A DNA stretch of 25,943 nt from IMG/VR virus record IMGVR_UViG_3300049596_000323, positions 64,001 to 89,943 of that record; one strand, given 5' to 3'. The notes beneath the pieces were generated by a model. The model ran no database searches, was not told where the DNA came from, and saw only the letters and a list, made by a program, of their open reading frames with translations. Positions 320 to 25,943 of the stretch are shown here, piece by piece (the first letter of the stretch is position 1; each line of letters starts with the position of its first letter). Made by a program: the position numbers and the translations under genes. Source of the DNA: a virus. Its lineage: Duplodnaviria > Heunggongvirae > Uroviricota > Caudoviricetes.

Positions 320-526
320 TTATTTCTTCAATCCGTACTTAATCCACTTGTACCAGAAACGTTCGTGAAGATAGTATTGAACAGGCTTGTAGATAAGCTC
401 AGCTACCCCAAAGGCAGCCCCCACCTTGATAGAATCACTGATCCACCACATTATTAGGAAACCTATTACGGTGCTGATTATTCTATAGCTAATAGTCTTA
501 GCTATGTGTCTCTTTACCAATGGCAT
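320..526 (-). CDS. DUF2061-family small membrane protein
   Basis: RHIAKTISYRIIST...KPVQYYLHERFWYK matches the DUF2061 pattern (RSxxKxxSxR ... YYxHERxW). ATG at 526 preferred over the track's TTG at 538, which lies inside the predicted -7 promoter box. Confidence 0.75.
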   Translation of the reverse strand: MPLVKRHIAKTISYRIISTVIGFLIMWWISDSIKVGAAFGVAELIYKPVQYYLHERFWYKWIKYGLKK

Positions 527-535
527 ATGTATGAG

Positions 536-567
536 CAAAACTATGTAAAAGATTTGATATAACCAAA
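536..567 (-). promoter_or_regulatory. Bacteroidota primary-sigma-type promoter (TTTG-N20-TAGTTTTG) for the DUF2061 gene
   Basis: Minus strand reads TTTG (567-564), 20-nt spacer, TAGTTTTG (543-536): exact match to the TTTG-N19-21-TAnnTTTG consensus. Confidence 0.6.
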
Positions 568-573
568 TCTTTT
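547..573. terminator. 10-bp hairpin flanked by A/T tracts downstream of DUF6165 gene
   Basis: AAAAGATTTG-ATATAAC-CAAATCTTTT perfect inverted repeat immediately after the 575 stop codon. Confidence 0.5.
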
Positions 574-574
574 T

Positions 575-943
575 TTAGTAAGGGTTGTATGATTTCTCCT
601 CTACAAACTCAGAGAAGTACTTGATATTAATTTCTTTTTTAATATGTGCTCTTTTATCATTCAATTTGTACACTGACCTAGCCAGATCAACAAATTCTGG
701 GCCAAAACTACCAGCTCTTTCAAAGTCTCTGAGCAAGTCTTCCACATCCCAAAGAGCTTTGTTTGTCTTAAGTAGATCATCTACTAGTGGATCGTGTAGA
801 ATTTCAGGGTCAATCACTGTATTTAAGTAGTTTTTCTCAACAAAAACGTTCTTAAGTTTGTCTTTGTCTGTAATGTTCAAAGCCTTGATGGAAAGGATGG
901 TCCATTTGTCCACAACTTCCCCAATACTTACTTCTATTTGCAT
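575..943 (-). CDS. DUF6165-family protein
   Basis: MQIEVSIGEVVDKWTILSIK...NKALWDVED...FVDLARSVYKLNDKRAHIKKEIN...EEKSY matches the characteristic DUF6165 pattern (GExxDKxTIL / LWxxED / LARxVYxxNDxR / EEKSY). Confidence 0.8.
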   Translation of the reverse strand: MQIEVSIGEVVDKWTILSIKALNITDKDKLKNVFVEKNYLNTVIDPEILHDPLVDDLLKTNKALWDVEDLLRDFERAGSFGPEFVDLARSVYKLNDKRAHIKKEINIKYFSEFVEEKSYNPY

Positions 944-949
944 AAAAAT

Positions 950-984
950 TTTGTTGTTTATTTACAACAAATATACTAATTTTG
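950..984. promoter_or_regulatory. Back-to-back divergent Bacteroidota-type promoters with an 8-bp inverted repeat
   Basis: Plus: TTG (954-956)-N20-TAATTTTG (977-984). Minus: TATATTTG (975-968), with no clear -33 at canonical spacing. Inverted repeat TTTGTTGT (950-957)/ACAACAAA (964-971). Confidence 0.55.
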
Positions 985-1002
985 TTCAAAATAACCAGCA
1001 TT

Positions 1003-4000
1003 ATGCCAAATAGTTATACTTTTTACAAACCTGAGATTAAGAAATACTTTGAACATCATGTTCCTACACATAAAAAGATATTAGATGTTGGTCCTGGACA
1101 GGGTACTTATGCTAAGCTTTTAGAAGATATTGGTTATGATATAGATGCTGTTGAAGCTTGGGCCCCTTACATTGAAGAATTCAAACTGAAAGATTGGTAC
1201 GGAACAGTACACAATGCAGACATCCGTGAGTTTGACTGGTCAGAATATGACTACATCATCCTAGGAGATATACTAGAACATCTTACAGCTGAAGAAGGTC
1301 AGAAGCTTATTACAGATATAACAGATGCAGGCAAAGAATGTTTAGTGGCTGTACCATATATGATGGCTCAAGATGGTGAAGAGTATGGTAATACATACGA
1401 AACCCATCTCCAGGAAGACCTAACTCACAGGGTAATGAAGACTAGATACCCCCAGCTAGTTGAACTTTACAGTAATCATTTGTATGGGTATTATACGAAT
1501 AAGCATATAAAAGCTGAAAAAGCGTACGTTTTATATGCAAATGCATCTTATGTTCCTACCGTTAAAGCTTGTGTAGCTTCTATAAGAAGATATAGCGAGC
1601 TTCCCATCTACGTATATTTATTAGATACTATTGCAGATATTCCTGGTGCTACAACAATTATGTGGAAGTCTAATCTACCAAAGCTTTCTATCAACAAATA
1701 CATTGATAGAAGTGATAAGAATGTTTATAGACTGTTGATAGAACGTCCAATGATTGTTAAAGATGCTCTATTAAACTGTGCTCATACAGTAGCTTATATA
1801 GACTCTGATAGTGTAGCCACAGAATATGTTGATAGCATCTTTGATATGTATCCTAAAATGAACTATCCCTATTTTGTAGAGGGTATTTATGACTATCTAC
1901 ACATCAATGGTAGAGGTGGGGCTGATACTAGAGAAGATATGTCTACAACATTAGAAGCACCAGCATGTGAATTGTTTGGTGTCAATCAATATGTTAGACA
2001 GAGATATAGACAAACAGGTTATTTTGTAGCCAACCATTACTGCTTTGATTTCTTAGATGAGTGGTACTGGATGTGTACTCATCCTAAAGTGATGGCTAAC
2101 CATGAGTGGTATGCTCCATACCATGAAGAAACAATAGCTAACGTGTTATTGTGGAAGTGGGGAGTGTTAGATGGCCTACCTTACATCTACACCAATGCTA
2201 GCCTAGATAGAATAGAAGACATCTACGATAAGCTTGAGTGGGGGAAGCACCACGGAAGCTGGTCAAGATTACCAGATAATAAACATAAGTTATTATTCTT
2301 ACATGGAGAGAAAGATCCAAAGGTGATGAATAAGATGATACAAACTCTAGAGAGTGCAGAGAAACAACTAAGTGTATTGTTCTTAGCTCCTCACTTATCT
2401 ACAGGTGGTATGCCTGGTTTCCTCCTAAAAAGAGTGCAAGAACTACAACATTTCGTACGAATTTATGTAGTGGAGTACTCTGACTTCAGTCCTGTGTATG
2501 TTGTACAGAAGAATGAAATCAAAAAGCTATTGCCTGAAAACAGGATGTTTACACTAGGAGAAAACAAGATGGAGCTCATTGACATCATCAAAAAGAATAG
2601 CATTGATGTTGTACATGTAGAAGAAATGTTAGAAGGGTTTGAGAGTTTTAATCAAATAAGCCCTCAGTTATTAGATGCATTGTATGCTCCTGATAGAACC
2701 TGGAGAATAGTTGAGACATGTCATAACGTTTGGTTTAATCCTGACGAACTTAAGAAGTATGAACCAGAAGCTTATGCTTTCTGTACACCATATCATTATA
2801 AGACATTTGCTAACATGAAGGCTTATAAAGATGTAATTGAATTCCCTATAGAAGATAAGAGACCAAGTATTGTACATAAAGTGGATGCTAAAGATGAGTT
2901 AGGATTTAATCTGAACAGACCTAATGTTGTAAACGTAGGACTGTGGACTCCAGGAAAGAATCAGAAAGAAGGAATAGAGATAGCTAGAAAATATCCTAGT
3001 ATGGACTTCCATTTTGTAGGTAATCAAGCCCCCAACTTTAAAGACTACTGGGAACCGTTGATGGAAAACTTACCAAAGAATGTAAAGATATGGGGAGAGA
3101 GAAATGATGTAGATATATTCTTAAAAGCTGCAGACATATTCATGTTTAACAGCACATGGGAATGTAATCCTCTTGTACTTAGAGAAGCGATCAGCTATGC
3201 ACTTCCTGTAGTAGCTAGAAATCTTCCTCAGTATGAAGATATGTTTACTAGATACATCCTACCTATAGATAGTGATTTAGATGAAGTGAATGAAAAATAT
3301 CCTGTTGGTGTTGTTTTTCATGACATACCAGATAACAGATTTGCACAAAATCATTTACACTTGTATAACAAAACACTTGATATACCCATTGTTCCTAGAA
3401 AAAAGAAGAAAACAAAGGTGAATATATCTTTGTTATTTGTAGAGAGTCCCACCTTAGAAATTACAGGAAACAGTGATAGTAACTTCTTAATCAAATTCTT
3501 TGATGAGAAAGGGGTTTGCCATTATGAAAATACAATTACTAGCAACCGTTGGGTTAAGTTAAATAGACAATGGTTTACCAAGTGGACAGCTATGGTATGG
3601 GAAGATGGAGAACTCATCTTTGAAGAAACGTTAAACTATGAAGGTAAGCGTGTATACATCTGTATAGATAGTCAATCATTAGGTGATACTATTGCCTGGA
3701 TACCGTATTGCAATGAATTCAGAAAGAAACACAACTGTCATGTTGTAGTGAGCACATATAAGAATTTCTTGTTTGAGAAAGCGTATCCAGAGCTTGAGTT
3801 TATCACTCCAGGAAGTGTAGTGGGTAATATTCATGGTCAGTACATTGTTGGCTGGAGATACGGTAAAGATAAAGAACCTGTGTTGTGTAACACTATTCCT
3901 TTACAGAAAGCAGCTACTAACATACTAGGATTAGAATGGAAAGAGATTAGACCTAGATTTGCTTATGAACCAGTTAAATTTAGTGGTAAAGATACATTTG

Positions 4001-4479
4001 TAACTATTGCTACAAACAGTACATCAGGATGTAAGTTCTGGACCAAGCAAGGTTGGCAGGCTTTGATTAACTATCTAGTTGATCATGGATACAAGGTGTA
4101 CAATGTATCTAAAGAAAAAAATCCATTTGATAACTGTACACAGATAGAAGATACTTCTATGGATAACACTATCAATATGATCTGGAATAGTAAGTTCTTT
4201 ATAGGATTAAGCTCAGGACTGAGCTGGTTAGCTTGGATGATGGGTAAGCAAACTGTAATGATTAGTAACTTTACAGAAGCAGATCATGAGTTTCAATCTA
4301 ATTGTTTAAGAATTACAGATACAAACTTATGTCATGGTTGTTGGAACAATCCTAACTTTAAGTTTGACAAAGGTGATTGGGATTGGTGTCCTGTACATAA
4401 AGGAACTGACAGACAATTTGAATGTCATAAAGGTATATCTGCAGAAACAGTAATTAATAAAATAAAACACTTACTATGA
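1003..4479 (+). CDS. Four-domain glycan-modifying enzyme: SAM methyltransferase + GT-A-like glycosyltransferase + GT4 (GT-B) + Aah/TibC-type autotransporter O-heptosyltransferase domain
   Basis: ILDVGPGQG and LGDILEHL (class I MTase, ~1003-1490); YIDSD DxD at 1801-1809; GT4 EX7E motif ECNPLVLRE at 3160-3186; SLGDTIAWIPY (Asp 3685-3687), GLSSGLSWLAW and CHGC...WCP...QFEC four-Cys motif (4330-4425) as in TibC/Aah. ATG at 1003 preferred over TTG at 982. Confidence 0.85.
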   Translation: MPNSYTFYKPEIKKYFEHHVPTHKKILDVGPGQGTYAKLLEDIGYDIDAVEAWAPYIEEFKLKDWYGTVHNADIREFDWSEYDYIILGDILEHLTAEEGQKLITDITDAGKECLVAVPYMMAQDGEEYGNTYETHLQEDLTHRVMKTRYPQLVELYSNHLYGYYTNKHIKAEKAYVLYANASYVPTVKACVASIRRYSELPIYVYLLDTIADIPGATTIMWKSNLPKLSINKYIDRSDKNVYRLLIERPMIVKDALLNCAHTVAYIDSDSVATEYVDSIFDMYPKMNYPYFVEGIYDYLHINGRGGADTREDMSTTLEAPACELFGVNQYVRQRYRQTGYFVANHYCFDFLDEWYWMCTHPKVMANHEWYAPYHEETIANVLLWKWGVLDGLPYIYTNASLDRIEDIYDKLEWGKHHGSWSRLPDNKHKLLFLHGEKDPKVMNKMIQTLESAEKQLSVLFLAPHLSTGGMPGFLLKRVQELQHFVRIYVVEYSDFSPVYVVQKNEIKKLLPENRMFTLGENKMELIDIIKKNSIDVVHVEEMLEGFESFNQISPQLLDALYAPDRTWRIVETCHNVWFNPDELKKYEPEAYAFCTPYHYKTFANMKAYKDVIEFPIEDKRPSIVHKVDAKDELGFNLNRPNVVNVGLWTPGKNQKEGIEIARKYPSMDFHFVGNQAPNFKDYWEPLMENLPKNVKIWGERNDVDIFLKAADIFMFNSTWECNPLVLREAISYALPVVARNLPQYEDMFTRYILPIDSDLDEVNEKYPVGVVFHDIPDNRFAQNHLHLYNKTLDIPIVPRKKKKTKVNISLLFVESPTLEITGNSDSNFLIKFFDEKGVCHYENTITSNRWVKLNRQWFTKWTAMVWEDGELIFEETLNYEGKRVYICIDSQSLGDTIAWIPYCNEFRKKHNCHVVVSTYKNFLFEKAYPELEFITPGSVVGNIHGQYIVGWRYGKDKEPVLCNTIPLQKAATNILGLEWKEIRPRFAYEPVKFSGKDTFVTIATNSTSGCKFWTKQGWQALINYLVDHGYKVYNVSKEKNPFDNCTQIEDTSMDNTINMIWNSKFFIGLSSGLSWLAWMMGKQTVMISNFTEADHEFQSNCLRITDTNLCHGCWNNPNFKFDKGDWDWCPVHKGTDRQFECHKGISAETVINKIKHLL

Positions 4480-4913
4480 TAATAGTATTATTTGGTCAAC
4501 CTGCATCAGGTAAAACAACCCTTGCTAAAAAATTTATAGCAGAGGGATTTCATCACATAGATGGTGATGAATTAAGAGATATGTTTAAGAATAAAGACTA
4601 CAGTAGAGAAGGTAGGATTAAGAACTTAAACAGAGCCAGTGATATAGCACACTATTTAAATAAAGCTAAAAACTATAACATAGTGTTATCACTAGTGTAT
4701 CCTTATGAAGAAGCTAGAGAACATCTTAATAAACTAACTAGAGATGTCAAATGGATATATCTCATCTATGAAGAAGATAGAGGTAGAGATGACTTTAAAG
4801 TGAAAGACTTTGAAGTTCCTCACATGGATAATGTAGATTTAATTATTAACACTTCTAACACTTCTATTGAAGACAGTTTAGATAAAATCAAGCGTATATG
4901 CAGAATATTTTAG
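4476..4913 (+). CDS. cysC: Adenylyl-sulfate (APS) kinase, compact form
   Basis: P-loop GQPASGKTT, IDGDELR, DYSREGRIKN, SLVYPY..AR, FEVP..VDLIINT..SIE: all CysC hallmarks. ATGA overlap with the upstream gene. Confidence 0.8.
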   Translation: MIIVLFGQPASGKTTLAKKFIAEGFHHIDGDELRDMFKNKDYSREGRIKNLNRASDIAHYLNKAKNYNIVLSLVYPYEEAREHLNKLTRDVKWIYLIYEEDRGRDDFKVKDFEVPHMDNVDLIINTSNTSIEDSLDKIKRICRIF

Positions 4914-5284
4914 CTGAGGGAAACCGTAAGACGGATGGGTATGCAATGTTCATAGGAAGATGGCAACCATGGCACGCTGGTCACAGATGGTTAATTGATC
5001 AACAATTGAACCAGGGAAAGAAGGTGTTGCTATGTGTAAGAGATGTTAAAGAGGATGAAAAGAATCCATGGTCTGCGTATCAAATCATGATGAACTTAGC
5101 AGAAGCATTAAATGATTTAATTGAAGAAGGTAAGGTGAGACTTATAATTATCCCTGATATTGAGTCTATAAACTTTGGAAGAGGGGTGGGTTATGATGTC
5201 GTTGAACATGTACCACCACAAGAGATACATGATATATCTGCTACACAAATTAGAGAACAAATGAAAAAAGAAGGTAAACTATGA
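4898..5284 (+). CDS. HIGH-motif (cytidylyltransferase-like) nucleotidyltransferase
   Basis: MFIGRWQPWHAGH (HxGH at 4973-4984) and C-terminal ISATQIR; start overlaps the cysC stop by 16 nt. Confidence 0.8.
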   Translation: MQNILAEGNRKTDGYAMFIGRWQPWHAGHRWLIDQQLNQGKKVLLCVRDVKEDEKNPWSAYQIMMNLAEALNDLIEEGKVRLIIIPDIESINFGRGVGYDVVEHVPPQEIHDISATQIREQMKKEGKL

Positions 5285-6147
5285 ATATAATATTTCAAAT
5301 TAATGGTGGTATAGGCAAGGTGATTGCCTCCACAGCTGTGTGTGCTTCAATAAAAACTAAGTACCCTGATTGTAAACTGATTGTTGTCTCTGGTTATCCA
5401 GATGTATTTTTAGGTAATCCTAATGTGGATAGAGCTTATGGCTTTGGTCAACAAGCTTATTTCTATAAGGAGTACATTGAGAATCAAGAGATTATATTGT
5501 TTGCACATGATCCTTATCTAGAAACAAAGCACATCAAACAAGAAGAACATCTTATTGAAACTTGGTGTAAGCTATATGACTTACCTGTAACTAAAACTGT
5601 TGGAGAATTATTTCTTACAAAAAGAGAAATAGATTTCTTTAGTAAGAAGTTCATATCTGATAAACCTATTTTGCTACTACAAACAAATGGTGGGACTGAA
5701 TCTGATGTTAAATACTCATGGGCTAGAGATATTCCTAGTTATGTGGTGGAGAATGTTATACATGAATTTAAAGAACAGTATAATATTGTTCACATAAGAA
5801 GAGAAGATCAAATAAATTATGAAGGTACATTTCCTGTAACTGATACATTCAGAGCACTTCTTGTACTTATAAGTATAAGTGATAAAAGATTAATGATGGA
5901 TAGCTTTGGTCAACATGCTGCAGCTGCTTTGAATAAACCATCCACTGTACTATGGGTTGTAAATGTTCCTAATGTATTTGGATATGATATTCATACAAAC
6001 ATTACAGCTAATCCAGAAACAAGTTCCTCTGAACTAAGAAACTCTTATTTGAACAAATATAATATATCAGGTGAGCTTATAGAGTTTCCTTACAATAATG
6101 AGTCTGAAATGTTTAATATAAACAATGTAATTAAATCTTTAAAATAA
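5281..6147 (+). CDS. GT9-like (GT-B fold) glycosyltransferase
   Basis: N-terminal IIFQINGGIGKVIAST..ASIKTKYPDCKLIV and C-terminal LMMDSFGQHAAAALNKPSTVLW resemble GT9 heptosyltransferase motifs (xGD...; IGxDSGxxHxAAAxxxPxxxLF). ATGA overlap. Confidence 0.65.
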   Translation: MNIIFQINGGIGKVIASTAVCASIKTKYPDCKLIVVSGYPDVFLGNPNVDRAYGFGQQAYFYKEYIENQEIILFAHDPYLETKHIKQEEHLIETWCKLYDLPVTKTVGELFLTKREIDFFSKKFISDKPILLLQTNGGTESDVKYSWARDIPSYVVENVIHEFKEQYNIVHIRREDQINYEGTFPVTDTFRALLVLISISDKRLMMDSFGQHAAAALNKPSTVLWVVNVPNVFGYDIHTNITANPETSSSELRNSYLNKYNISGELIEFPYNNESEMFNINNVIKSLK

Positions 6148-6968
6148 TGGAAAAAATATTCTATCAAAGTTCTTTACCTAGGTCAGGATCTACATTGTTA
6201 CAAAACATTCTTGCACAGAACCCTGATATATATGCTACACCTACGTCTGGTGTACTTGAATTAATATTTGGAGCACGTGCTAATTACACTAACTCTACTG
6301 AGTTTAAAGCTCAAGATGCTGAACTTATGAAAAAAGGATGGCAAGCATTTGCTAAATCTGGTATGGATGCTTTCTACAATGCTATTACAGATAAGAAATA
6401 TGTTATAGATAAAAGCAGAGGTTGGGGCATACACTATGATTTCTTACAGTTTGTACACAATGAAGAACCAAAAATCATTTGTATGGTGAGAGACTTACGT
6501 GATGTATTTGCATCTATGGAAGGTAACTTTAGAAAACATCCAGAGAAGCAATCTGATATTTTAGATTGGGCTAAAGGACAAGGAACCACTGTACCTAAGC
6601 GTATAGACATATGGGCATCACAACCTCCTGTAGGACTTGCTCTTGAAAGACTTAGTGAGATATTTAGAACAGGAATTAATAACAAAATGTTATTTGTAAA
6701 GTTTGAAGACTTATGTTTATATCCAGATACTACAATGATTAAGATATATGAATATCTAGGATTAACATATTATCAACATGACTTTGATCACATTGAGCAA
6801 GTAACTAAAGAAGATGATGAAGTGTACGGTGCATTTGGTGATCACGTTATTCGTACAAAACTTGAACCTGTAAGAAGTAAAGCCAAAGAGTTATTAGGTA
6901 AGGACGTAACAGATTGGATCTATACCAATTACAAATGGTTCTATGACACATTTAGATATAGTAAATAA
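6147..6968 (+). CDS. PAPS-dependent sulfotransferase (Sulfotransfer_3-like)
   Basis: 5'-PSB loop SLPRSGSTLLQNIL, IDKSRGW, 3'-PB motif MVRDLRDVFASM, VKFEDL..PDTTMIKIYEYLGL. TAATG overlap with the upstream gene. Confidence 0.85.
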   Translation: MEKIFYQSSLPRSGSTLLQNILAQNPDIYATPTSGVLELIFGARANYTNSTEFKAQDAELMKKGWQAFAKSGMDAFYNAITDKKYVIDKSRGWGIHYDFLQFVHNEEPKIICMVRDLRDVFASMEGNFRKHPEKQSDILDWAKGQGTTVPKRIDIWASQPPVGLALERLSEIFRTGINNKMLFVKFEDLCLYPDTTMIKIYEYLGLTYYQHDFDHIEQVTKEDDEVYGAFGDHVIRTKLEPVRSKAKELLGKDVTDWIYTNYKWFYDTFRYSK

Positions 6969-7401: not shown

Positions 7402-10400
7402 TTATTTATTTCTTAATTCTTCTAACTGTAAAGTTAATGAATCTACACAAGATATCAAAATTTGCACACCCTTGGTTAAAATAGGTATTAGTTTTGATGA
7501 ATCAAATGAGTAGTATCCACTAAAGGTCATTTTTACTGATTCAGGTACTACGTCTTTAACTTGTTGAGCAATGAATCCTACTTGTTTTCCTTCTCCATTA
7601 GCTTTATTAGCACTATTGAATTCATAGAATGAAGGAACTAATTTGCTAACATCACAAAGCTGATATCCAACAGGTTGAATGCAACACTTTAATCTAGCAT
7701 CAGATGTATTTAAAACAATCATTCCAGTAGCATTTGCACAAATTGCACCTCCTGGATTTAAATTAGCAGCCTTGAAACAACTAGCATGATTTACAAATGA
7801 GTCTGTTGACATTATCTGACATCCACTTACAACACTTCCTATTCCCATACTCATGTTGAAACAACCACCAGTAACAGCAGAAGCTGCAGCCATTGCGTTG
7901 TTAGATTGTCCAGCAAGAATACCACTCATTTCTGAACTTACATAGTTTTGATATCCAGCAAGAATACCTGACTTCATACTACTACTAAACATATTACCTC
8001 CAGCTATAGTATTGTTACTACCACCTCCAATGAAACCCCAACCACCATAATTACAATTGGTTTGTCCACCTCCAATGAAACCATAACTAGGGAAGCTAGC
8101 ATAATATGCACTGCTAGTCGTGTTACCAGAACCTCCTACAATAACTGAACAATTACCACCTGCATTATTCATAGTACCTCCTATAATAGCAGAACTACAT
8201 GCACTAGCCATATTCATTTCACCACCACCAACAAAAGAACGGCAGCTCATAGCGTTATTATAAAAACCACTAGCAACTGCAGCACCTTCAGCAAATGCTC
8301 CATTGGATCGTCCACCACCAATAAAGGTAAAGTAAGCTGAAGCACTGTTAGAATATCCACCACTAACTGTTGAATAATCTCCATTTGCATTATTAAGCTT
8401 TCCACCACCAATAGTAGAAAACCCTGAACTTCCTGAAGCTCCAATAGTATTACAACATCCTCCACCTATTGTTCCATAACTAACGCACACTTTATTATTA
8501 ACACCACCACCAATTGTCATCCCAATATTATTAAAAGGATAACTACTAGCCGTAAAATTATTAAATCCACCTCCAATAAATGAACAAGCTGCACTATTGT
8601 TATTTGCTTCACCACCAGCAATTACTGACGAACTTCCACCTGCATTGTTAAAGAAACCACTTAACGCTCCAGAGTTAGTACCTCCTGTCGTGTTAAAGTT
8701 ACCACATCTTTCTGTAGAACCAGCTCCCATTCCTAGTACCATAATGCTTGATCCACCACCACCACCAGCAGTTAAACATAATTTACCAAAGCCATCAAAG
8801 CTTATACTACAACCCATTCCAACGTATGGAGCAAATGAAGTGATTGCTAAATCATTAACCATGTGTGTACATGCTAATGAATTCATTAAACCACATCCAG
8901 ATACAGTTGAATAGTTTGCAGTAGCAAAATTACCCTGTCCTCCAGTTATAGTTGCACCAGTTACATATCCACTAATAGTATTCATGCTTCCTCCAGATAT
9001 AGTACCACTAGTACCATTACTGCCAATGTTATTCATAAATCCTCCAGATATAACATTGTTACCTGAGTAATTACCAATATTATGAAAAGTACCACCAGCA
9101 ATTACACCATGTGTTGAACCTGTTCCAATCATGTTGATATCACCGCCTCCAATTACATTACAGCTGGCATAACTACTAACAGTGTTAGACTTACCACCAG
9201 CAATTAAATTACCAGCAGAATTAGTACAAATAATATTACATGCACCACCACTAATTGTAGAACAGTTTGTACTTGATAATATTTTGTTAAATACACCACC
9301 AGATATTGTTGAACTAGATGAACAAACACAGTTGTTATTACCACCACTAATAACTGAACAGCTTGCAGAAATTACATTGTTAAAGAAACCTCCTCCAATG
9401 AATGAATACATTCCAGAGTTACTGTTGAATCCACCACCAGTAATAACTGATCCGTTGCTAGAACTAGCATTGGTAGTACCACTTAAAGCACTAGAACAAT
9501 ATCCACTTGCTGTGTTAGAAAATCCATTACCTTGAATTGAACCAGGAGCACTACCAGCAACCATTACACCACCTCCACTTGAAGCAGTGTAAGCAATAAG
9601 CTCACCCAAAGGTCCTGCACATACAGCACATCCACCTATCATTGCATTACTTAAATTAGGTTGTACAAAGCAGTTAGCCATGAATGAACATGATAAACTG
9701 TTTGATAAACCACATCCAAATACACCAGAATATGCTCCCATTGCAGTATTACCACAACCTCCTAATACTGCTGAAAATGATCCATTAGCAGAGTTATTTT
9801 GACCACCAACTACCACACCAGATGTTCCATTAGCTCCATTAAAAGTTCCACTTCCAACAAATGAACATTGTCCAGCAGCACTATTACCAAAACCATTTCC
9901 TATAAAAGCATAATCTCCACTTGCAGTGTTAGATGCTCCATTTACAACTGTATTATATTGTGTACCTGAGGCTACGTTATTTAATCCATTACCTATAAAA
10001 TTATAATTTGCATTAGTACAGTTACCTTGTCCATTAACAATAGTTCCATGGAAGTTACCTGAAGCATGGTTTTGACAACCACCACCAATAAATGAATATG
10101 CAAAATCACCTGTGTTACCAGCACCACCTAATACAGAACTACAATTTCCTGAAGCAGTGTTTGAAGCACCACATCTAACAGATGAAGCAGTCCCTGTACC
10201 AGCAATAATAACAGCACTAGAACCAACATTCACACCACTAGATCCAGAAGATCCAGATGTACCATTAGTTCCAGGAGCTCCTGGAGATCCTGCAGCTCCT
10301 GATGTACCACTAGTACCAGTTGTACCAGCAGTTCCAGATGTACCATTAATACCACTTGATCCACTTGTTCCAGAGGTACCAGTAGTACCGCTTGTGCCAG

Positions 10401-13400
10401 TGGTACCTGATGTACCATTAATACCTGATGTACCAGCAGTGCCAGAAGAACCGCTAGTTCCTGTAGTTCCAGAAGTACCATTTGATCCATTAACACCAGA
10501 AGTGCCAGAGGTACCAGTTGTACCTGATGTACCGTTTATTCCACTAGTTCCACTTGTTCCTGTTGTGCCAGATGTACCGTTTATACCAGATGTGCCTGAG
10601 GTTCCAGTTGTTCCAGAAGTTCCTCCTGTACCATTAGTTCCAGATGTACCACCTGTACCATTAGTACCTGAAGAGCCTGAAGAGCCTGATGTTCCAGTAG
10701 TACCTGAAGTACCGCCAGTTCCATTAGTAGCTGAAGTTCCTGAAGTTGCTGACGTACCACTAGTTCCATTACTACCACTAACACCAGAAGATCCTGATGT
10801 TCCTGTGGTACCTGATGTACCACTTGTTGCACTAGTTCCACTAGTACCTGTTGTACCACTGGTTCCAGTTGTGCCACTTGTTCCACTTGTACCACCAGTT
10901 CCATTAGTACCACTAGAACCTGAAGTTCCACTTGTACCAGAGGTACCTCCAGTTCCATTAGTTCCTGAACTTCCTGATGTACCAGTGGTACCAGAAGTTG
11001 CAGATGAACCAGATGTACCAGAAGAGCCAGATGTACCTGTTGTACCAGAGCTTCCACTTGTACCAGTTGAACCTGAAGTACCAGTGGTACCGCTTGTTCC
11101 TGATGTACCAGAAGTTCCTGAAGATCCATCAGTTCCACTTGTTCCAGTGGTACCTGATGTTCCTGAAGGAGCATTGAATGTTGTTTGAGCGTATGAGTAG
11201 TTACTCGTACCCTCTGTATAAAAAGTTATATTATGATTAGCACCACCACCAGTAAATTCAACATAAATTTGACAATAAAGTCTATCTGTTGCATTTAATG
11301 TGGTTTGTGGCAAAAATAAATCTGTAAAAAATTCTTTAATAACACCATTGCTCATTGATTCTGTATCAATGTTTGTAGTTCCTAAAAGAGTAGAAACACC
11401 ACCAGTTGTATACTTGTATAATTCTACATCTACTGCAACATTTCTATTTGTATCAATTGAAAGGTGTGTTACGAAAGCCCAAAGACCTGAAGGTATATTT
11501 GTTATATTTGGTACACCACTATCAGTTGCAAAAGTTGCAATTAATGTTCTTGTGTCTGCCGCTATATTTGTAACTACAGTTTGTTCTGCACCACCTGTAG
11601 CAGTTGATGAAAATTGTTTATAAGTAGGAGTACCAAAAGCCGTATTTGTATTTAATGATTGATTTAGATAGTATACAAGTCCTCCAGATATACCATTTAT
11701 ACCTGATGTACCAGCCGTACCTGAAGTACCACTTGTTCCACTTGTTCCGCTAGATCCACTAGTTCCTGTTGTACCAGACGTACCACTAGTTCCTGTAGAA
11801 CCACTTGTACCAGTTGTTCCACTTGTACCTGAGCTTCCTGAAGTTCCAGTTGTACCGCTAGATCCTGATGTACCACTAGTTCCACCAGTTCCATTAGTTC
11901 CACTAGAACCACTTGTTCCTGTTGTACCTGAAGTGCCACCAGTTCCATTAGTTCCACTAGATCCAGAACTACCACTTGTACCAGATGATCCACTTGTACC
12001 AGTAGTTCCACTAGAGCCTGAAGTACCTGTAGATCCACTAGTTCCACTAGTTCCACCAGTACCATTAGTACCGCTAGTTCCACTAGTACCACTTGTACCA
12101 GTTGTTCCACTAGTACCACTTGTGCCATCAATAGCACTTGTACCAGAAGTTCCACTTGTACCTGAGGTACCACTTGTTCCGTCTACACCAGATGTTCCAC
12201 TTGTGCCAGACGTACCTGTTGACCCACTAGTACCACTAGTACCAGTTGTGCCAGAAGTTCCGTTAGTACCATCTATACCAGTTGTACCTGAGGTACCTGA
12301 AGTACCACCACTACCTGACGTACCAGTGGTACCAGATGTTCCACTTGTTCCATCTATTGCAGAAGTTCCTGAGGTACCAGTAGTACCAGCAGTTCCTGAA
12401 GAGCCGCTTGTTCCACTAGTTCCAGATGTACCTGTTGAACCAGATGTTCCACTAGTTGCAGAAGAACCTGAGGTTCCACTTGTTCCTGTAGTTCCACTAG
12501 ATCCACTTGTACCATCAATTCCTGATGTGCCACTTGTTCCACTTGATCCACTAGTACCACCTGTACCATTGGTAGCAGATGTTCCACTTGAACCAGATGT
12601 ACCGCTTGTACCTGTTGTGCCACTAGTTCCTGAGGTTCCAGTTGTACCAGATGTTCCATCAATAGCTGATGTTCCACTTGTACCAGCTGTTCCACTAGTT
12701 CCAGTTGTGCCACTTGTACCGCTAGTTCCATCAATTGCAGATGTACCACTAGAACCACTTGTTCCAGTCGTGCCACTTGTACCACTGGTTCCTGTTGTTC
12801 CAGCAGTTCCAGAAGAACCACTAGTCCCAGAAGATCCTGAAGTTCCAGTAGTGCCAGATGTTCCAGAAGAACCATCTCCTCCAGAAGCACCGTCTAAGTT
12901 AACTATCCAGCTTGTATATGTACCACTACCAACTGTTCTAGTTGGAGTGCCAAAAATTAATCCACCAGTAGCTGGGTTATAAGATACCACTTCACATTCT
13001 TGGAAGTTGTTTATATCATAAGCTATTACAATAGATTGAGCTACTGTATATGCAAGTTGTGTTCCTACAACAATGGCTCCATTACTACCTAATGTAAACG
13101 ATGTAGTAGAAGTTGTTGCAAATTGGTCACCTGTTTCTCCAGAAGTACCTGATGAACCAGATGTACCATTACTACCATCAGCACCACTGGTTCCACTAGT
13201 TCCACTAGTTCCAGATGTGCCATCTATTGCTGATGTTCCAGATGAGCCTGAAGACCCACTAGTTCCTGAAGTACCGTCTGTTGCACTTGTTCCACTTGAA
13301 CCTGATGTTCCACTTGTACCAGATGTACCTCCACTACCACCAGCACCATCAATACCTGAACTACCACTAGTTCCAGATGTACCAGCAGTACCTGACGTGC

Positions 13401-13673: not shown

Positions 13674-16600
13674 TTAACAAGGTACACAACTACCTGCTTG
13701 AGTTAACAATGTTGAACCACCACCTGCAGAAGTAAATGGTCTAGTATTGGTTCCATCAGAAACATAATAGGTTCCTGCACTCAATGATGTAGCATTAGCT
13801 GCATTTAAAGCACCACATCCACAAAGAGTTGCTGTACCTGTGTATGCATATGTTGGAAGGCTAGTAGCTGTACCTGCACAAGCCATTGAACTAATAGAAT
13901 CTACATATAATGTTGGAGAACTTGGAGTTGTACATGAACCACTCACTTGAACTAATCCATATATGTTTACAGCATACCAATTAGTTCCATCAGAATAATA
14001 TCCTGAACTAACTGAATTTGTAAGTGCTGTATCATAATATAAAAATGTGACAGTTGCTGTAATAGTAGTACCAAATTCATAATAAATTGGAACTAATAAT
14101 GAAGGATTATCTGCATTACCACATGCTACAATAGGCCCTACATTACTTGGATAACTAGGATCAGCAAACGCTAAATTTATAGTATTATAGACAGGTGCTG
14201 TTGTAGTTGTTGTTGTTGTAGTTATACAACTTTCTATACTTGTTATTATACCAGATTCAGCAATTCCAAATGGATCACCATCAAGACCTATATAATATGT
14301 GCCTGGAGGATTTGAAAATGTAAAAGGATCTGTTAAATATTGATCATCATACAATTGTGTTCCTACTTGAATAGGTAATGATTCTACATATAATGGAGCA
14401 AGAATACCACCACTACAAGGACTAAAAGGACCAAAAAGACTTGGGCTAACACCACTAGCCGTAACTTCAATACCATTTTGATTTAAAGGAAAAGATATTG
14501 TATTAGAACTTGTACCATATAATAATGTAGAGCTACCAGAGGTTCCTGACGTTCCACTGGTACCAGAAGTACCACTAGTTCCACTTGTGCCACTAGTGCC
14601 TGATGTACCTGAGGTTCCACTAGTACCATCTATTGCACTTGTTCCAGATGTGCCAGATGAACCAGCTGTACCACTTGAGCCTGATGTACCGTCTATACCA
14701 GACGTTCCTGTTGTTCCAGAAGACCCACTAGTACCTGATGTTCCGTCTACACCTGTAGTTCCAGATGTTCCATCAGTTCCACTTGTACCTGATGTGCCAG
14801 TAGTTCCTGAAGAACCAGAAGTTCCTGAGGTGCCACTAGTTGCTGAGGTACCACTTGTTCCTGTTGTACCACTAGTACCAGATGAACCTGAAGTGCCAGA
14901 AGTTCCGTCAATTCCAGATGTTCCATCTGTACCACTTGTACCATCAGTACCACTAGTTCCGTCAACTCCACTTGTTCCTGAAGTTCCATCTATGCCAGAA
15001 GTACCGTCAGTACCAGATGTTCCATCAGTACCTGATGTTCCGTCTGTACCAGAAGTACCACTTGAACCAGAAGTTCCTGAAGTGCCATCAATACCACTAG
15101 AGCCTGATGTACCACTTGTGCCTGAAGTACCAGTGCTTCCACTTGTACCACTTGTTCCGTTTGTACCATCAATGCCAGAAGTTCCAGAAGTTCCACTAGA
15201 ACCACTAGTTCCAGTTGTTCCACTAGATCCTGATGTACCGCTTGTTCCAGAAGTTCCAGTTGTACCTGATGAGCCATCATTACCAGAAGTACCAGATGTG
15301 CCTGTAGTTCCAGAAGTGCCAGAAGTGCCATCTATTCCAGATGTACCACTTGTACCTGAGCTACCATCACCACCTGATGCACCATCAAGGTTTACTATCC
15401 AACTTGTATATGTGCCTGAACCCACTGTTCTAAAAGGGGCACCAAAACTTAATTCACCTGTTGATGGATTATAAGCTGTAACCTCACACTCTTGGAAGTT
15501 ATTAGCGTCATAAACCACAATTATTGATTGAGCCACTGAGTATGCTAAACCTGTAGCAACTGTTAATGTACCAGAGTTACCTAATGTAAAGCTATCAGTA
15601 GATGTAGTTCTATATTTATCACCTTGTGCTCCAGAAGTACCACTTGTACCACTGGTGCCATCTATTCCAGATGACCCTGAAGTTCCTGCAGATCCTGATG
15701 TTCCATGGCTACCGTCTGTACCACTTGTTCCACTAGTTCCAGAAGTACCAGTAGTACCACTAGATCCTGATTCACCACTAGTACCACTTGTTCCAGTAGT
15801 TCCAGAAGTTCCGTTACTACCATCACTTCCTGAGGTTCCTGAACTACCACTTGTGCCTGTAGTACCACTAGTACCACTTGTTCCATCAACTCCAGAAGAC
15901 CCACTAGTTCCAGAAGATCCACTTGTTGCAGATGTACCGCTTGTACCATGTGTTCCACTGGTTCCAGATGTACCAGTCGTACCTGAAGTTCCTGATTCAC
16001 CACTAGTTCCACTAGTACCGTCAGACCCTGATGTACCAGATGTTCCATCAACACCACTTGTTCCAGTGGTACCAGATGATCCAGATGTACCTGTTGTTCC
16101 TGAAGTACCGCTTGTACCTGTAGATCCACTTGTACCTGATGTACCACTTGTTGCAGATGTTCCAGACGTACCACTTGTTCCATCTACTCCACTTGTACCA
16201 GAGGTACCATCTTCACCTGAAGATCCACTTGTTCCAGCAGTTCCACTAGTTGCAGAAGTTCCACTAGTTCCATCTACACCTGAAGTGCCACTGGTTCCTG
16301 TAGTGCCTGATGTTCCTGATGTACCATCTATACCTGAAGTACCACTGGTTCCAGAGGTTCCACTAGTTGCAGATGAACCACTAGTTCCACTTGTACCATC
16401 AGTTCCACTTGTACCATCAATACCAGATGTGCCTGAGCTTCCAGCAGTTCCTGAAGAACCTGCTGATCCATTTACACCATTTGTTCCATTAATACCTGAC
16501 GTACCAGAGGTACCACGTGTTCCTGATGTACCACTAGTACCTGTAGTTCCACTTGTTCCAGTTGTTCCACTTGATCCTGAGACACCAGAAGTACCAGAAG

Positions 16601-16949
16601 TACCACGTGTACCAGACGTACCATCTACACCACTTGTACCTGAAGTACCAGTTAAACCACTAGTACCTGATGTACCACGTGTTCCTGAGGTTCCAGAAAC
16701 CCCACTTGTACCAGAGGTTCCATTGATACCATTTGTACCATCAATACCAGAGGTTCCACTAGTACCTGAAGTACCAGCTGAACCACTACCACCTCCTCCA
16801 TTACCAATAGCTTCATCAATTTTTTGTAAAGCTGTCTGAATGGAATCATTAGTGTTGATACCTGTATAAACAAGATTAGCACCCTCGTAAAATACGCAGG
16901 TGCTGTTAAGTATGACTGGGCAAGGAGTTGCAGAACATGTAACGTTCAT
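13674..16949 (-). CDS. Second G-T-S triplet fibre protein with Cys-containing N-terminal anchor and three Cys-bracketed C-terminal modules
   Basis: N-term [19 protein letters not shown]...[12 protein letters not shown]; two Gly-X-Y blocks split by a module shared with fibre 1; C-terminal modules joined by TTTTTTT and TTPSSP linkers. Confidence 0.8.
14530..15375 (-). repeat. Gly-X-Y coding repeat, block B of fibre 2 (boundaries approximate)
   Basis: GTS/GTD/GID triplets, 9-nt degenerate periodicity. Confidence 0.9.
15620..16800 (-). repeat. Gly-X-Y coding repeat, block A of fibre 2 (boundaries approximate)
   Basis: GTS triplets with interspersed GTR, GES, GVD, GTH. Confidence 0.9.
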
Positions 16950-25100: not shown

Positions 25101-25943
25101 AATCACAATCTTCTTGGATAGATCTTTTAACAACTGTACTGAGTTAGGTTTAATCAATCTAGCAAAGTTTTGTTCACTAGAAATTAAATCTTCCATTGAA
25201 GCAATGTATTCATTCTCAATAGACTTAGAATAGAACTTATCTACGTCAGAACCATAGAACTCTTCGTCTTCATCAACATCTTCACCAACTTCAACAGTAC
25301 CTATTTTAGATAACTTGTTGGCAATCAAGAACTTACTAATAGCTCTTTTAGCTTCAGCTTCATTCTTACCAAAATAAGGGATATACCTAGGCATACCATC
25401 TTTATCAATATATACATTCTTTAAATAGATGGATAGCTTATCTATATCAAAGTCAGATCCAGCCTTCTCAACTAATGCTGAAGGTACTACAATAGAGTCA
25501 CCAAACTCTTGTGGAAGGAACTTAGCCACCACAAATCTATCAATAGAGTTTTGTTTTTCAGTTGGGATACGGAAACCTACACCAGATAAAAGTTTCTTAC
25601 CTTCATCTGTAGTGTTTAAATATTTCAACAATGCCTCATCAGACATGTTGGTCTTAAACCATTTACGTATCATCACTTCACACACACGCTCACCCTCTGC
25701 ATTTCTATAGAACTTTAATACACTAGATGCATATGTTTTTTTACCATTAATCTCTTTAACCTCAGCTCTAACTGATTCCAACATAGCAGAGCTAATTTGC
25801 ACCTTCATACCACCTGTCATCTTAGGAGATGCAAATGTGTTCTGTGCAATAGAGTATAATGTATTTACAATTTGTTGATATGCTGGAGTTGCTTCAATGT
25901 CTTGATTACCAGCTATTAAGCTATCAACAGCTTTTAATATATT
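22191..25943 (-). CDS. crAss-like virion-packaged DNA-dependent RNA polymerase (C-terminal part; 5'-truncated by the window)
   Basis: GFRIPTEKQNS...GDSIVVP...AGSDFDIDKL (DFDID at 25440-25454) and GKYAIGIAA match the phi14:2 gp66-type two-barrel RNAP. The frame stays open from the track start (25820) to the window end (NILKAVDSLIAG...SPKMTGG). Confidence 0.85.
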   Translation of the reverse strand, partial: NILKAVDSLIAGNQDIEATPAYQQIVNTLYSIAQNTFASPKMTGGMKVQISSAMLESVRAEVKEINGKKTYASSVLKFYRNAEGERVCEVMIRKWFKTNMSDEALLKYLNTTDEGKKLLSGVGFRIPTEKQNSIDRFVVAKFLPQEFGDSIVVPSALVEKAGSDFDIDKLSIYLKNVYIDKDGMPRYIPYFGKNEAEAKRAISKFLIANKLSKIGTVEVGEDVDEDEEFYGSDVDKFYSKSIENEYIASMEDLISSEQNFARLIKPNSVQLLKDLSKKIVIKKFGKEFDYVSTSNLLNQTFMSTIRDAFVRGKYAIGIAAQAQTNHALNQRDVVIVDHRKYVIPEDASWLGDKKVKFSKYNKFKIGNDVFPLLSRVKDANNEHDISDIIAMFIGGYVDIAKGPWIMELGANPTVAPTWLFLVKIGVPIEEVANFMNQPIIIDYLKELQNLGSAFLFSREAFNKVRINAKYRVGDSGYTIKDGTIPSGKELSALVGKNALNDKEKLQQAFMLNEFLKYSKMAEHLFRVTQATKFDTANINNPYTIYRMDDAIITNSPSEYSTNLIGSATGNILENSFIGDLRNKYSGIKDVYAQAIVSEKKENAQAIQELLFNRYKRLGDRKFSKLARRIVNNIFDFSVQTLDEYNMAIGDSLVNVNNTAKQIAEFVKQVRDNENHDLHNNLIINSFQYQPSQLEGGADSIKLTGKDNKTYDQNQIIYAFAQLKDYLKANNNYDLYKGLITLSIVQSGLNNSAISFTGFIPYEDFRERYSEPMSRLNTTTIGKFAEVDAFERNNWNNPDVVSFKRPKMVYNEDGFAFSDLKGTITIQHEELQAAMERGEFPQMLNIPVKDRAARKDFLVYTWEVGTAEEKQKLKEAGDFSYIKKGLFKKVYDEQASPSVPLRYGKAKNFIYKQINAWGDGQRANEFYDHARVSQINNGFDPVEFEKADYEIAGYINEDKIQKEIRQGYQTDPTEEELQANFENSLMEDEDNFTYEEEIPEEIVPSQGVQTSDMTPQAIYKLVNRMDDATDATGLALRYIAGGGKIGEESLYKEVTAKRDSRLVPGKQTKQESTLRDFVTKDGPSISEVAHSIWEGLDETLQSKIDDQDIRNELNDVISSTIKRLEAAKTYVDRYATPDDFFRVAAPVKVAEKKLEERKIVINGQAYTERGDNLYKNNELVKNQRVMEIYAVRKEIQSGKIKITTYGDANYFVLSDNKIVSSAKATLGQEAKLSEEIKKMILDKAVKYKKTC

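What the first reader, a model, noticed from the sequence alone, without database searches (positions are those of the whole stretch)
3412..4479. Intact Aah/TibC-type iron-binding protein heptosyltransferase domain in a phage
Seen: N-terminal beta-rich segment ending FEETLNYEGKRVYI, SLGD (candidate catalytic Asp), GLSSGLSWLAW and all four Cys of the CHGC/WCP/FEC motif. Established: in enterobacterial TibC/Aah these Cys bind Fe3+ and the enzyme forms a dodecamer that modifies autotransporter adhesins. Here there is no autotransporter, so the phage fibre is the obvious alternative substrate (inference).
Basis: partly seen in the sequence, partly recalled or inferred. Interest (0 to 1): 0.8.

Follow-up and report, generated by a model that had tools for sequence, protein, structure and literature searches.

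The report
Phage TibC-like enzyme beside collagen-like fibres
A marine phage encodes a true relative of the bacterial enzymes TibC/Aah, which put sugars on adhesins, as the last part of a four-enzyme protein, and comparison across phages suggests that it sugar-coats the phage's own proline-free Gly-Thr-Ser fibres; no experiment has tested this.

Summary
Window 3412-4479 is the C-terminal 355 residues of one 1158/1165-aa gene (1003/982-4479, + strand). It scores 250 bits against TIGR04414 (cut-off 200) and E 2e-45 against TibC. An AlphaFold model superposes on TibC at TM 0.91.

The catalytic Asp, the phosphate-binding Thr/Lys, the sugar-contact Trp and four Cys with TibC's exact spacing are all conserved.

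Two features that TibC needs are missing in this phage branch:
- the beta-hairpin thumb that builds the dodecamer, which is 10 residues shorter here;
- the adenine-contact Arg-286, which is Thr here.

No ADP-heptose pathway genes occur in 25 such phage records. So "heptosyl", "dodecamer" and "Fe3+" remain unproven.

The fibre link is well supported:
- 39 of 47 phage loci carry a convergent G-[ST]-[ST] collagen-like gene just downstream.
- All 6 near-complete phages sampled by (G[ST][ST])7 alone carry the domain.
- Within this phage's own lineage, 7 of 7 genomes with the domain have such fibres and 0 of 8 without it do.
- Five of five independent switches go together.

The whole enzyme module co-varies, so which domain starts the glycan is open.

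This scan has already noted the same pairing in at least 53 other genomes. I found no paper on it. Verdict: a new variant of a known kind.

The parts
1003..4479 (+). Four-domain gene: SAM methyltransferase, GT-A glycosyltransferase, GT4 (GT-B) glycosyltransferase and a TibC/Aah-like domain. The ORF is open from TTG 982; the first ATG is at 1003.
   Evidence: The same ~1155-1162-aa architecture recurs in many metagenome samples. The Atlas record starts at residue 8.
1027..1326 (+). SAM-dependent methyltransferase domain (residues 16-115)
   Evidence: Pfam Methyltransf_23/11/25; phrog_27380
1513..2361 (+). GT-A-fold glycosyltransferase domain with an invariant DxD (Asp codons at 1801-1803 and 1807-1809)
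   Evidence: No Pfam hit. AF2 pLDDT 84.5. Foldseek matches GT6 and UGGT catalytic domains at TM ~0.5, E 1e-7. Invariant D110/D112 in alignment A2.
2389..3408 (+). GT4 (Glycos_transf_1) GT-B glycosyltransferase domain
   Evidence: PF00534 E 4e-14, PF13692
3412..4479 (+). TibC/Aah-like (BAHT) domain: N-terminal beta-barrel, GT-B-like catalytic core and Cys4 finger. This is the finding.
3685..3687 (+). Asp92 of the domain, equivalent to the TibC catalytic base Asp-110 (SLGD)
   Evidence: Aligned. Invariant in 41/41 and 77/77 phage copies. Role taken from PMC4358343.
4021..4035 (+). Thr204 and Lys208, equivalent to the TibC beta-phosphate contacts Thr-226 and Lys-230
4114..4158 (+). Site of the shortened beta-hairpin thumb: 10 residues fewer than TibC, and no hairpin in the model
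   Evidence: Gaps in the alignment. DSSP. Segment length is 40 aa in 76/77 phage copies against 50 aa in 52/79 cellular ones.
4168..4170 (+). Thr253 at the position of the TibC adenine-contact Arg-286
   Evidence: alignment. Thr in 76/77 phage copies; Arg in 59/79 cellular ones.
4210..4227 (+). Ser267 (TibC Pro-300, Aah Ser-294) and Trp272 (TibC Trp-305, heptose O4 contact)
4330..4425 (+). Cys4 finger: C307-x2-C310-x15-C326-x11-C338, the same spacing as TibC C339/342/358/370
4476..4913 (+). APS-kinase-like P-loop kinase (module neighbour)
   Evidence: PF01583 E 9e-10; conserved beside the enzyme in L007/L008
4898..5284 (+). Small HIGH-type nucleotidyltransferase (module neighbour)
   Evidence: PF01467, TIGR00125; phrog_10255 spans this gene and the kinase
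5281..6147 (+). 288-aa protein with a faint GT9-like N-terminus (module neighbour)
   Evidence: below any cut-off; conserved in L007/L008
6147..6968 (+). Sulfotransferase (module neighbour)
   Evidence: PF13469 E 5e-17; also near the enzyme in L007, L008 and L010
7402..13647 (-). 2081-aa fibre and candidate acceptor: 828 aa of proline-poor Gly-Thr-Ser triplets in three blocks, a UspA1-head-like beta-roll region, and a C-terminal S74 chaperone
13674..16949 (-). 1091-aa fibre and candidate acceptor: 678 aa of Gly-Thr-Ser triplets with no proline in the blocks

Best explanation
Window 3412-4479 encodes the C-terminal domain of a four-domain phage enzyme. The domain is a genuine member of the TibC/Aah (BAHT) protein O-glycosyltransferase family. 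It keeps the catalytic Asp, the NDP-phosphate contacts, the sugar-contact Trp and a Cys4 metal finger. It belongs to a distinct branch that has lost the dodecamer-forming beta-hairpin thumb and the adenine-contact Arg.

The most likely function (inferred, not shown) is that it acts in the infected cell on Ser/Thr hydroxyls of the phage's own proline-free (Gly-Thr-Ser)n collagen-like fibres, which are encoded convergently just downstream. It would use a host-supplied nucleotide sugar, either ADP-heptose or another. The fused GT-A, GT4 and methyltransferase domains, together with the adjacent PAPS-supply and sulfotransferase genes, would extend and decorate the glycan.

What is shown: family membership, fold, conserved residues, and co-occurrence and synteny with the fibres. 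What is inferred: the acceptor, the order in which the domains act, the donor sugar, the metal and the oligomeric state.
For: Family and fold: TIGR04414 250.5 bits against a cut-off of 200; TibC E 1.9e-45; model against 4rap TM 0.91 and rmsd 2.2 A, with the next-best hits WaaF/WaaC at only TM ~0.5.

Residues: D92, K208, W272 and the four Cys are invariant, and T204 is at least 90% conserved, in 41 diverse homologues and in 77/77 phage copies. Their roles in TibC come from PMC4358343.

Fibre link, five lines of evidence:
1. Of 47 IMG/VR loci with at least 5 kb downstream, 39 have a G-[ST]-[ST] collagen-like ORF downstream. It is always on the opposite strand, with a median gap of 726 bp. Only 2 of 67 have one upstream.
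2. Viral contigs sampled only by a (G[ST][ST])7 coding run carry the domain in 21 of 48 records, and in 6 of 6 records that are at least 90% complete (66-548 kb). The rate in GenBank phages is 4 of 50,697.
3. Within this phage's own lineage (TerL 83-99% identical), all 7 near-complete genomes with the domain have such runs and none of the 8 without it do (Fisher p 1.6e-4). The TerL tree needs at least 5 changes, and 5 of 5 independent pairs switch together.
4. In cellular genomes, short- or mid-thumb copies have such ORFs nearby in 12 of 25 loci, against 1 of 54 for long-thumb copies (p 1e-6).
5. The thumb classes cluster on a tree built without the thumb columns.

Acceptor: the two fibres hold 1506 aa of triplets, with Thr/Ser at X and Ser/Thr at Y and almost no Pro.
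Against: No biochemical data exist for any phage member. The co-varying unit is a whole cassette: the GT4 genes appear and disappear together with the BAHT domain, and the fibre genes lie next to the enzyme. Co-inheritance could therefore partly reflect physical linkage, and it cannot show which domain touches the protein.

Some phages with the domain have no strict (G[ST][ST])7 run (Mel-JY01 and LR756504), and 8 of 47 loci with enough flank lack a nearby fibre of this kind.

TibC mutants that lack the thumb contact or Arg-286 are inactive on TibA. The phage branch must therefore work differently, or on a different donor, or it could in principle be catalytically impaired.

The sign test over independent pairs cannot go below p 0.0625 with 5 pairs.
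Confidence: 0.65

Rival explanations
1. The BAHT-like domain is not the protein-directed (initiating) transferase. The fused GT4 domain starts the glycan on Ser/Thr, as the GT4 enzymes GtfA and SdgA/SdgB do on Ser-rich repeats (my own knowledge). The BAHT-like domain then adds a later sugar to the growing glycan.
For: GT4 is fused to, or lies next to, the BAHT domain in essentially all relatives. It co-varies with the fibres just as the BAHT domain does: GT4 is present in G068, G069 and G071 and absent in G070 and G073. There is a faint SdgA match (19 bits, far below cut-off). The loss of the thumb and Arg-286 shows that the domain no longer works exactly like TibC.
Against: The only experimentally characterised activity of this family is direct O-glycosylation of protein Ser (PMC4358343). 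The acceptor-activating Asp is invariant. The BAHT domain also occurs as a stand-alone 357-369-aa gene in lineage members that still carry the fibres.
Confidence: 0.15
2. The acceptor is the beta-roll part of the 2081-aa fibre, which resembles the head of a trimeric autotransporter, rather than the Gly-Thr-Ser triple helix. That would match the beta-helical passenger domains that TibC/Aah modify.
For: Fibre residues ~1150-2081 match the UspA1 head (3pr7 E 2e-11; 3ntn E 7e-5). TibC recognises a beta-helix through its iron finger, and the finger is fully conserved here.
Against: Homologues of this beta-roll region co-vary less well with the enzyme. They are absent at E<=1e-5 from four genomes with the domain (G063, G071, G065, G083) and present in one without it (G074). 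The (G[ST][ST])n runs match 9 of 9 against 1 of 12, the one exception being a contig that ends inside the fibre gene. Divergent beta-rolls could have been missed.
Confidence: 0.12
3. The enzyme modifies host molecules (LPS core, host autotransporters or other envelope proteins) during infection, for example to block superinfection. Its position beside the fibre genes would then be incidental.
For: GT9-type enzymes and BAHTs normally act on envelope components. Phage glycosyltransferases that change host surface antigens are known (text of PMC12619734).
Against: The module is gained and lost together with one specific fibre type at least five times within a single phage lineage. It accompanies such fibres in phages from 66 to 548 kb. 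It is oriented convergently with them in 39 of 47 loci. The contig has no autotransporter domain.
Confidence: 0.06

Closest known systems
TibC (ETEC) and Aah (DAEC), bacterial autotransporter heptosyltransferases (BAHT family; TIGR04414; PDB 4RAP/4RB4; PMC4358343)
   Same: The HMM score is above the curated cut-off. The three-part fold is the same (beta-barrel, GT-B-like core, Cys4 finger) at TM 0.91. Conserved residues are the catalytic Asp-110, Thr-226, Lys-230 and Trp-305, and four Cys with identical spacing. Residue 300 is Ser, as in Aah.
   Different: The domain is the C-terminal part of a 1165-aa four-enzyme fusion in a phage. The beta-hairpin thumb (tip Phe-265/Val-266, needed for the dodecamer and for activity) is cut by 10 residues. 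The adenine-contact Arg-286 is Thr. There is no partner autotransporter; instead there are convergent (Gly-Thr-Ser)n collagen-like fibres. The donor sugar is unknown, and the phage encodes no heptose pathway.
Mycobacteriophage virion glycosylation (Freeman et al. 2023, PMC10527164, as summarised in PMC12619734)
   Same: In both cases, phage-encoded glycosyltransferases are proposed or shown to decorate the phage's own structural proteins.
   Different: There the glycans sit on the C-termini of capsid and tail-tube subunits and are made by other glycosyltransferase families. Here the candidate acceptors are kilo-residue collagen-like fibre repeats and the enzyme is of BAHT type.
O-glycosylated bacterial collagen-like proteins such as BclA of the Bacillus anthracis exosporium (GPT repeats), and Ser-rich-repeat glycosylation by the GT4 enzymes GtfA and SdgA/SdgB (my own knowledge, not tested here)
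   Same: Repetitive Thr/Ser-rich surface filaments are densely O-glycosylated by dedicated cytoplasmic glycosyltransferases. A GT4 domain is fused here.
   Different: None of those systems is phage virion-borne or combined with methyltransferase and sulfotransferase genes.
LPS heptosyltransferases WaaC/WaaF (GT9; PDB 2H1H, 1PSW)
   Same: GT-B-like catalytic core. There is a weak Pfam Glyco_transf_9 match (24 bits) and Foldseek E ~1e-9.
   Different: TM is only ~0.5. These enzymes have no N-terminal beta-barrel and no Cys4 finger, and their acceptor is a lipid-linked sugar.

Membership tests
BAHT (TibC/Aah; TIGR04414) | Whole-protein HMM score above NCBIfam's curated cut-off (200 bits) | tested here: met
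   250.5 bits for the domain and 246.4 bits for the full protein; 249.8 bits in the six-frame genome search
BAHT (TibC/Aah; TIGR04414) | Protomer fold: flattened N-terminal beta-barrel, GT-B-like catalytic domain and Cys4 finger insertion | tested here: met
   AF2 pLDDT 94.1 and pTM 0.91. Foldseek against 4rap gives TM 0.91/0.85 and rmsd 2.2 A over 370 columns.
BAHT (TibC/Aah; TIGR04414) | Catalytic base Asp-110 | tested here: met
   D92 (SLGD) aligns with Asp-110. It is invariant in 41/41 and 77/77 copies.
BAHT (TibC/Aah; TIGR04414) | Donor contacts Thr-226, Lys-230 (beta-phosphate) and Trp-305 (heptose O4) | tested here: met
   T204, K208 and W272 are conserved in 77/77 phage copies
BAHT (TibC/Aah; TIGR04414) | Adenine-contact Arg-286 (highly conserved in BAHTs; R286A abolishes activity) | tested here: not met
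   Thr253 is at this position. It is Thr in 76/77 phage copies, while Arg is present in 59/79 cellular homologues.
BAHT (TibC/Aah; TIGR04414) | Four Cys coordinating one Fe3+ (iron finger) | tested here: inconclusive
   The four Cys are invariant with TibC's exact spacing (x2, x15, x11). The identity of the metal cannot be read from sequence.
   There is a 10-residue deletion at the thumb, and the model has no hairpin at residues 232-249. The segment is 40 aa in 76/77 phage copies against 50 aa in TibC and in 52/79 cellular copies.
BAHT (TibC/Aah; TIGR04414) | Ring-shaped dodecamer | not testable with these tools
   This needs SEC-MALS or cryo-EM. Loss of the thumb argues against a TibC-type ring (inference).
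BAHT (TibC/Aah; TIGR04414) | Partner autotransporter encoded next to the enzyme | tested here: not met
   There is no PF03797 match in the 89.9-kb contig. The neighbours are collagen-like fibres. The distal part of one fibre resembles the UspA1 head.
BAHT (TibC/Aah; TIGR04414) | Uses ADP-heptose and transfers heptose to Ser | not testable with these tools
   No GmhA (0/25) and no HldE adenylyltransferase above cut-off (0/25) were found in phage records carrying the domain, nor in this contig. The host is unknown.
Phage virion glycosylation systems (mycobacteriophage type) | Phage-encoded glycosyltransferases that modify the phage's own structural proteins | not testable with these tools
   Support here is only genomic co-occurrence. 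No glycan has been observed.

The most novel reading that the evidence does not exclude
A coherent, thumbless BAHT branch that does not form a dodecamer has been re-targeted from autotransporters to proline-free (Gly-Ser/Thr-Ser/Thr)n collagen-like repeats. It uses a donor other than ADP-heptose. Together with fused GT-A, GT4 and methyltransferase domains and a PAPS/sulfotransferase set, it builds a methylated, sulfated O-glycan coat on phage fibres. That coat is needed for the triple helix to fold, or to shield the fibre. This would be a widespread but undescribed virion glyco-sulfation system of aquatic phages.
Probability: 0.3. Interest if true: 0.8.

Novelty: new variant of a known kind. 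Interest (0 to 1): 0.62.

Why it matters
BAHT enzymes are known only as virulence-associated modifiers of enterobacterial autotransporters. Here a distinct branch is common in aquatic phages: more than 3000 90%-identity clusters and 1417 50%-identity clusters.

This branch travels with kilo-residue, proline-free collagen-like fibres. That gives a concrete, testable candidate for how such fibres fold or are protected, since glycosylated Thr could stand in for hydroxyproline.

It would also be a second example, much larger in scale, of phage virion glycosylation. And it offers a protein O-glycosyltransferase with a simple repeat acceptor that could be useful for glyco-engineering.

The finding also warns that the automatic annotation 'autotransporter O-heptosyltransferase' on thousands of phage proteins probably mis-states both the acceptor and, possibly, the sugar.

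Tried and rejected
- Megablast of the gene against GenBank phages gave no match.
- Pfam on residues 165-480 and on the fibre's beta-roll region gave nothing, even at E<=5. The first was resolved by folding (GT-A). The second was resolved by a PDB sequence search (UspA1 head).
- The homodimer prediction for the domain (2 copies, alignment A1) returned 'no answer' with a score of 0.00. It says nothing either way about oligomerisation.
- Literature searches for phage TibC/BAHT, O-heptosyltransferase in viruses, and glycosylated collagen-like phage fibres found no relevant paper.
- ADP-heptose pathway genes (GmhA, HldE domain II) were sought in this contig and in 25 phage records carrying the domain. 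None was found above cut-off, so I dropped the idea that the small nucleotidyltransferase at 4898-5284 is an HldE-type heptose-1-P adenylyltransferase.
- I tested the beta-roll as the co-varying acceptor. It tracks the enzyme less well than the triplet repeats.
- I tried to single out the BAHT domain from GT4 by co-variation. This failed because both come and go together.
- Not every phage with the domain has strict (G[ST][ST])7 runs: only 1 of 3 GenBank records does.
Full report
**What is at the coordinates**

Window 3412-4479 (+ strand) is not a separate gene. It is the last 355 residues of one open frame, 982-4479 (1165 codons from a TTG; the first ATG is at 1003, giving 1158 aa).

The stretch scores 250.5 bits against NCBIfam TIGR04414 'autotransporter strand-loop-strand O-heptosyltransferase' (curated cut-off 200; E 2.5e-74). 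It scores E 1.9e-45 against the TibC crystal-structure sequences 4rap/4rb4. Pfam sees only a weak Glyco_transf_9 match.

An AlphaFold2 model built on 41 diverse homologues has pLDDT 94.1 and pTM 0.91. It superposes on TibC with TM 0.91, rmsd 2.2 A and E 4e-33. The next-best folds, WaaF and WaaC, reach only TM ~0.5.

**Context**

The window is the last 26 kb of an 89.9-kb IMG/VR virus contig, estimated 78% complete. A nearly identical 117.7-kb complete genome exists (G049).

The contig encodes a portal, large terminase, major head protein, DNA polymerase, RIIA/RIIB and ribonucleotide reductase. Its terminase is nearest to Leptolyngbya phage Lbo-JY46 (40%), Cellulophaga phages phi17:2 and phi4:1 (33%) and crAss-like phages (~27%). 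The host is unknown.

The rest of the protein consists of three domains:
- a SAM methyltransferase (residues 16-115);
- a domain with no Pfam match that folds as a GT-A glycosyltransferase with an invariant DxD;
- a GT4 Glycos_transf_1 domain.

Downstream on the same strand lie an APS-kinase-like gene, a small HIGH-type nucleotidyltransferase, a 288-aa protein with a faint GT9-like N-terminus, and a sulfotransferase.

Converging on this operon from the other strand are two fibre genes:
- The first (7402-13647, 2081 aa) has 828 residues of Gly-X-Y triplets. X is Thr or Ser in 247 of 276 triplets and Y is Ser or Thr in 215 of 276, with only three prolines. It ends in a Peptidase_S74 chaperone.
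- The second (13674-16949, 1091 aa) has 678 such residues and no proline in the blocks.

**Comparison with TibC, residue by residue**

TibC's functional residues are taken from Yao et al. 2014 (PMC4358343).

Conserved:
- Catalytic base Asp-110 = D92.
- Beta-phosphate contacts Thr-226 and Lys-230 = T204 and K208.
- Heptose O4 contact Trp-305 = W272.
- Iron ligands Cys-339/342/358/370 = C307/310/326/338, with identical spacing.
- All of these are present in 77 of 77 phage copies.
- Residue 300, the stereoselectivity determinant, is Ser, as in Aah.

Not conserved:
[quoted passage not shown] It is Thr here and in 76 of 77 phage copies. By contrast, 59 of 79 cellular homologues keep Arg.
Mutating the tip reduces TibC to inactive dimers. 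Here the thumb is shortened by 10 residues, and the model shows no hairpin. The segment is 40 aa in 76 of 77 phage copies, against 50 aa in TibC and in 52 of 79 cellular copies.

On a tree built without the thumb columns, the thumb classes cluster strongly: 4 changes against a shuffled mean of 53. This is therefore a distinct branch of the family, not a scatter of degenerate copies.

**Which sugar?**

Neither this contig nor 25 other phage records that carry the domain (17 of them at least 90% complete) encode GmhA or an HldE-type adenylyltransferase above cut-off. Combined with the loss of the adenine-contact Arg, this leaves the donor open. I put ADP-heptose from the host at roughly one in three. 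The name 'heptosyltransferase' should be treated as a family label, not as a shown activity.

**What does it act on?**

Five independent lines tie the enzyme to G-[ST]-[ST] collagen-like fibres.

1. Synteny. Among 80 IMG/VR loci found with the domain, 47 have at least 5 kb downstream. Of these, 39 carry such an ORF downstream, always convergent, with a median gap of 726 bp. Only 2 of 67 have one upstream.
2. Reverse sampling. Viral contigs were picked solely for a (G[ST][ST])7 coding run. The domain is present in 21 of 48 records and in all 6 that are at least 90% complete. Those six span 66 to 548 kb, which points to several lineages. In GenBank phages the domain occurs in 4 of 50,697 records.
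3. A natural experiment within this phage's own lineage (terminase 83-99% identical). Of 15 genomes at least 90% complete, 7 have the domain and all 7 have the repeat runs; 8 lack it and none has them (Fisher p 1.6e-4). The one discordant incomplete contig ends inside its fibre gene.
4. Independent switches. The terminase tree needs at least five changes of state, and 5 of 5 independent pairs switch both traits together. The sign test gives p 0.0625, the floor for five pairs.
5. Cellular genomes. Short- or mid-thumb copies have such ORFs nearby in 12 of 25 loci, against 1 of 54 for long-thumb, TibC-like copies (p 1e-6).

**Limits of this evidence**

The fibre and enzyme genes are adjacent, so they may move as one cassette. 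GT4 genes come and go with the BAHT domain, so co-variation cannot say which domain touches the protein.

Family precedent and the invariant catalytic Asp favour the BAHT domain as the protein-directed step. In some lineage members it is a stand-alone 357-369-aa gene. GT4 enzymes also initiate glycans on Ser-rich repeats in other systems (my own knowledge), so I keep that as a rival.

However, the distal 900 residues of the 2081-aa fibre match the head of the trimeric autotransporter UspA1 (E 2e-11), so a passenger-like beta-roll is available as an alternative acceptor. Homologues of that region track the enzyme less well than the triplet repeats do. They are absent from four genomes with the domain and present in one without it.

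**Novelty**

The family is large. There are more than 3000 90%-identity clusters, almost all multi-domain fusions from marine and freshwater metagenomes. JGI labels many of them 'autotransporter ... O-heptosyltransferase'. At 50% identity there are 1417 clusters.

I found no paper describing a phage BAHT or its link to collagen-like fibres. The nearest published analogy for function is mycobacteriophage virion glycosylation (cited).

This scan has already reported the same pairing in at least 53 other genomes. My tests here were run independently and agree with those reports.

What this window adds:
- the four-enzyme fusion with an adjacent sulfation gene set;
- the clean presence/absence contrast within one lineage;
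- the explicit finding that two TibC-essential features (thumb and Arg-286) are missing from the phage branch.

**Verdict**

This is a new variant of a known kind. Family membership is near certain. The fibre as target is about 0.65. Heptose, iron and the dodecamer are unproven.

Noticed in passing
window 4476-4913 and 4898-5284: An APS-kinase-like gene overlaps a 128-aa HIGH-type nucleotidyltransferase by 16 nt. One PHROG family (phrog_10255, 230 aa) covers both, so they are fused elsewhere. The pair is conserved as two genes beside the enzyme in L007/L008. With the sulfotransferase at 6147-6968, this suggests a phage PAPS supply, but no ATP sulfurylase was identified.
   Followed up: partly
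window 5281-6147: A 288-aa protein with only a faint match to LPS heptosyltransferases at its N-terminus (E 0.003-0.008). It is conserved next to the sulfotransferase in L007/L008. Related genomes G069 and G071 show a second weak TIGR04414 hit (31-36 bits) in a ~315-aa ORF a few kb from the main one, which is probably its homologue.
   Followed up: no
window 7402-13647 (-), protein residues ~1150-2081: The distal part of the 2081-aa fibre matches the head domain of the Moraxella trimeric autotransporter UspA1 (3pr7 E 2e-11; 3ntn E 7e-5) and ends in a Peptidase_S74 intramolecular chaperone. The protein thus combines a collagen-like stalk, a trimeric-autotransporter-type head and a phage chaperone.
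   Followed up: partly
window 320-943 (-): DUF2061 and DUF6165 genes are transcribed divergently from the enzyme gene. The same pair sits in the same place in L007 and L008.
   Followed up: no
window 17090-22189 and 22191-25820 (-): Two very large ORFs (1699 and 1209 aa) have no Pfam match. The first has only a weak exonuclease-PHROG hit over residues 405-541.
   Followed up: no
L010:18210-21335: In a 200-kb phage contig, five tandem 2OG-Fe(II) oxygenase genes lie a few kb from the BAHT fusion and a sulfotransferase. These could be hydroxylases of the same modification system.
   Followed up: no
L007:12216-13711: In the 80%-identical relative, the module also contains an FkbM methyltransferase and a fatty-acid-hydroxylase-family gene, and the kinase/nucleotidyltransferase pair is inverted relative to this window. 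The accessory set is therefore variable.
   Followed up: no
G000:C1:5757-7619 (outside the window): A third, 620-aa collagen-like tail-fibre gene lies near the head and packaging genes of the same contig.
   Followed up: no
lineage genomes G049-G083 (loci L220-L296): Within a phage lineage with 83-99% identical terminases, the fibre-plus-glycosylation cassette is present or absent in a patchwork that needs at least five changes on the terminase tree. This indicates frequent cassette exchange of the host-recognition region.
   Followed up: partly
LR756501.1 (735-kb phage), about 103-106 kb and 587.5 kb: This huge phage carries the BAHT domain at ~580 kb and about 1000 overlapping (G[ST][ST])7 pattern matches, most of them in a region far from the enzyme gene. 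Adjacency is therefore not obligatory.
   Followed up: no
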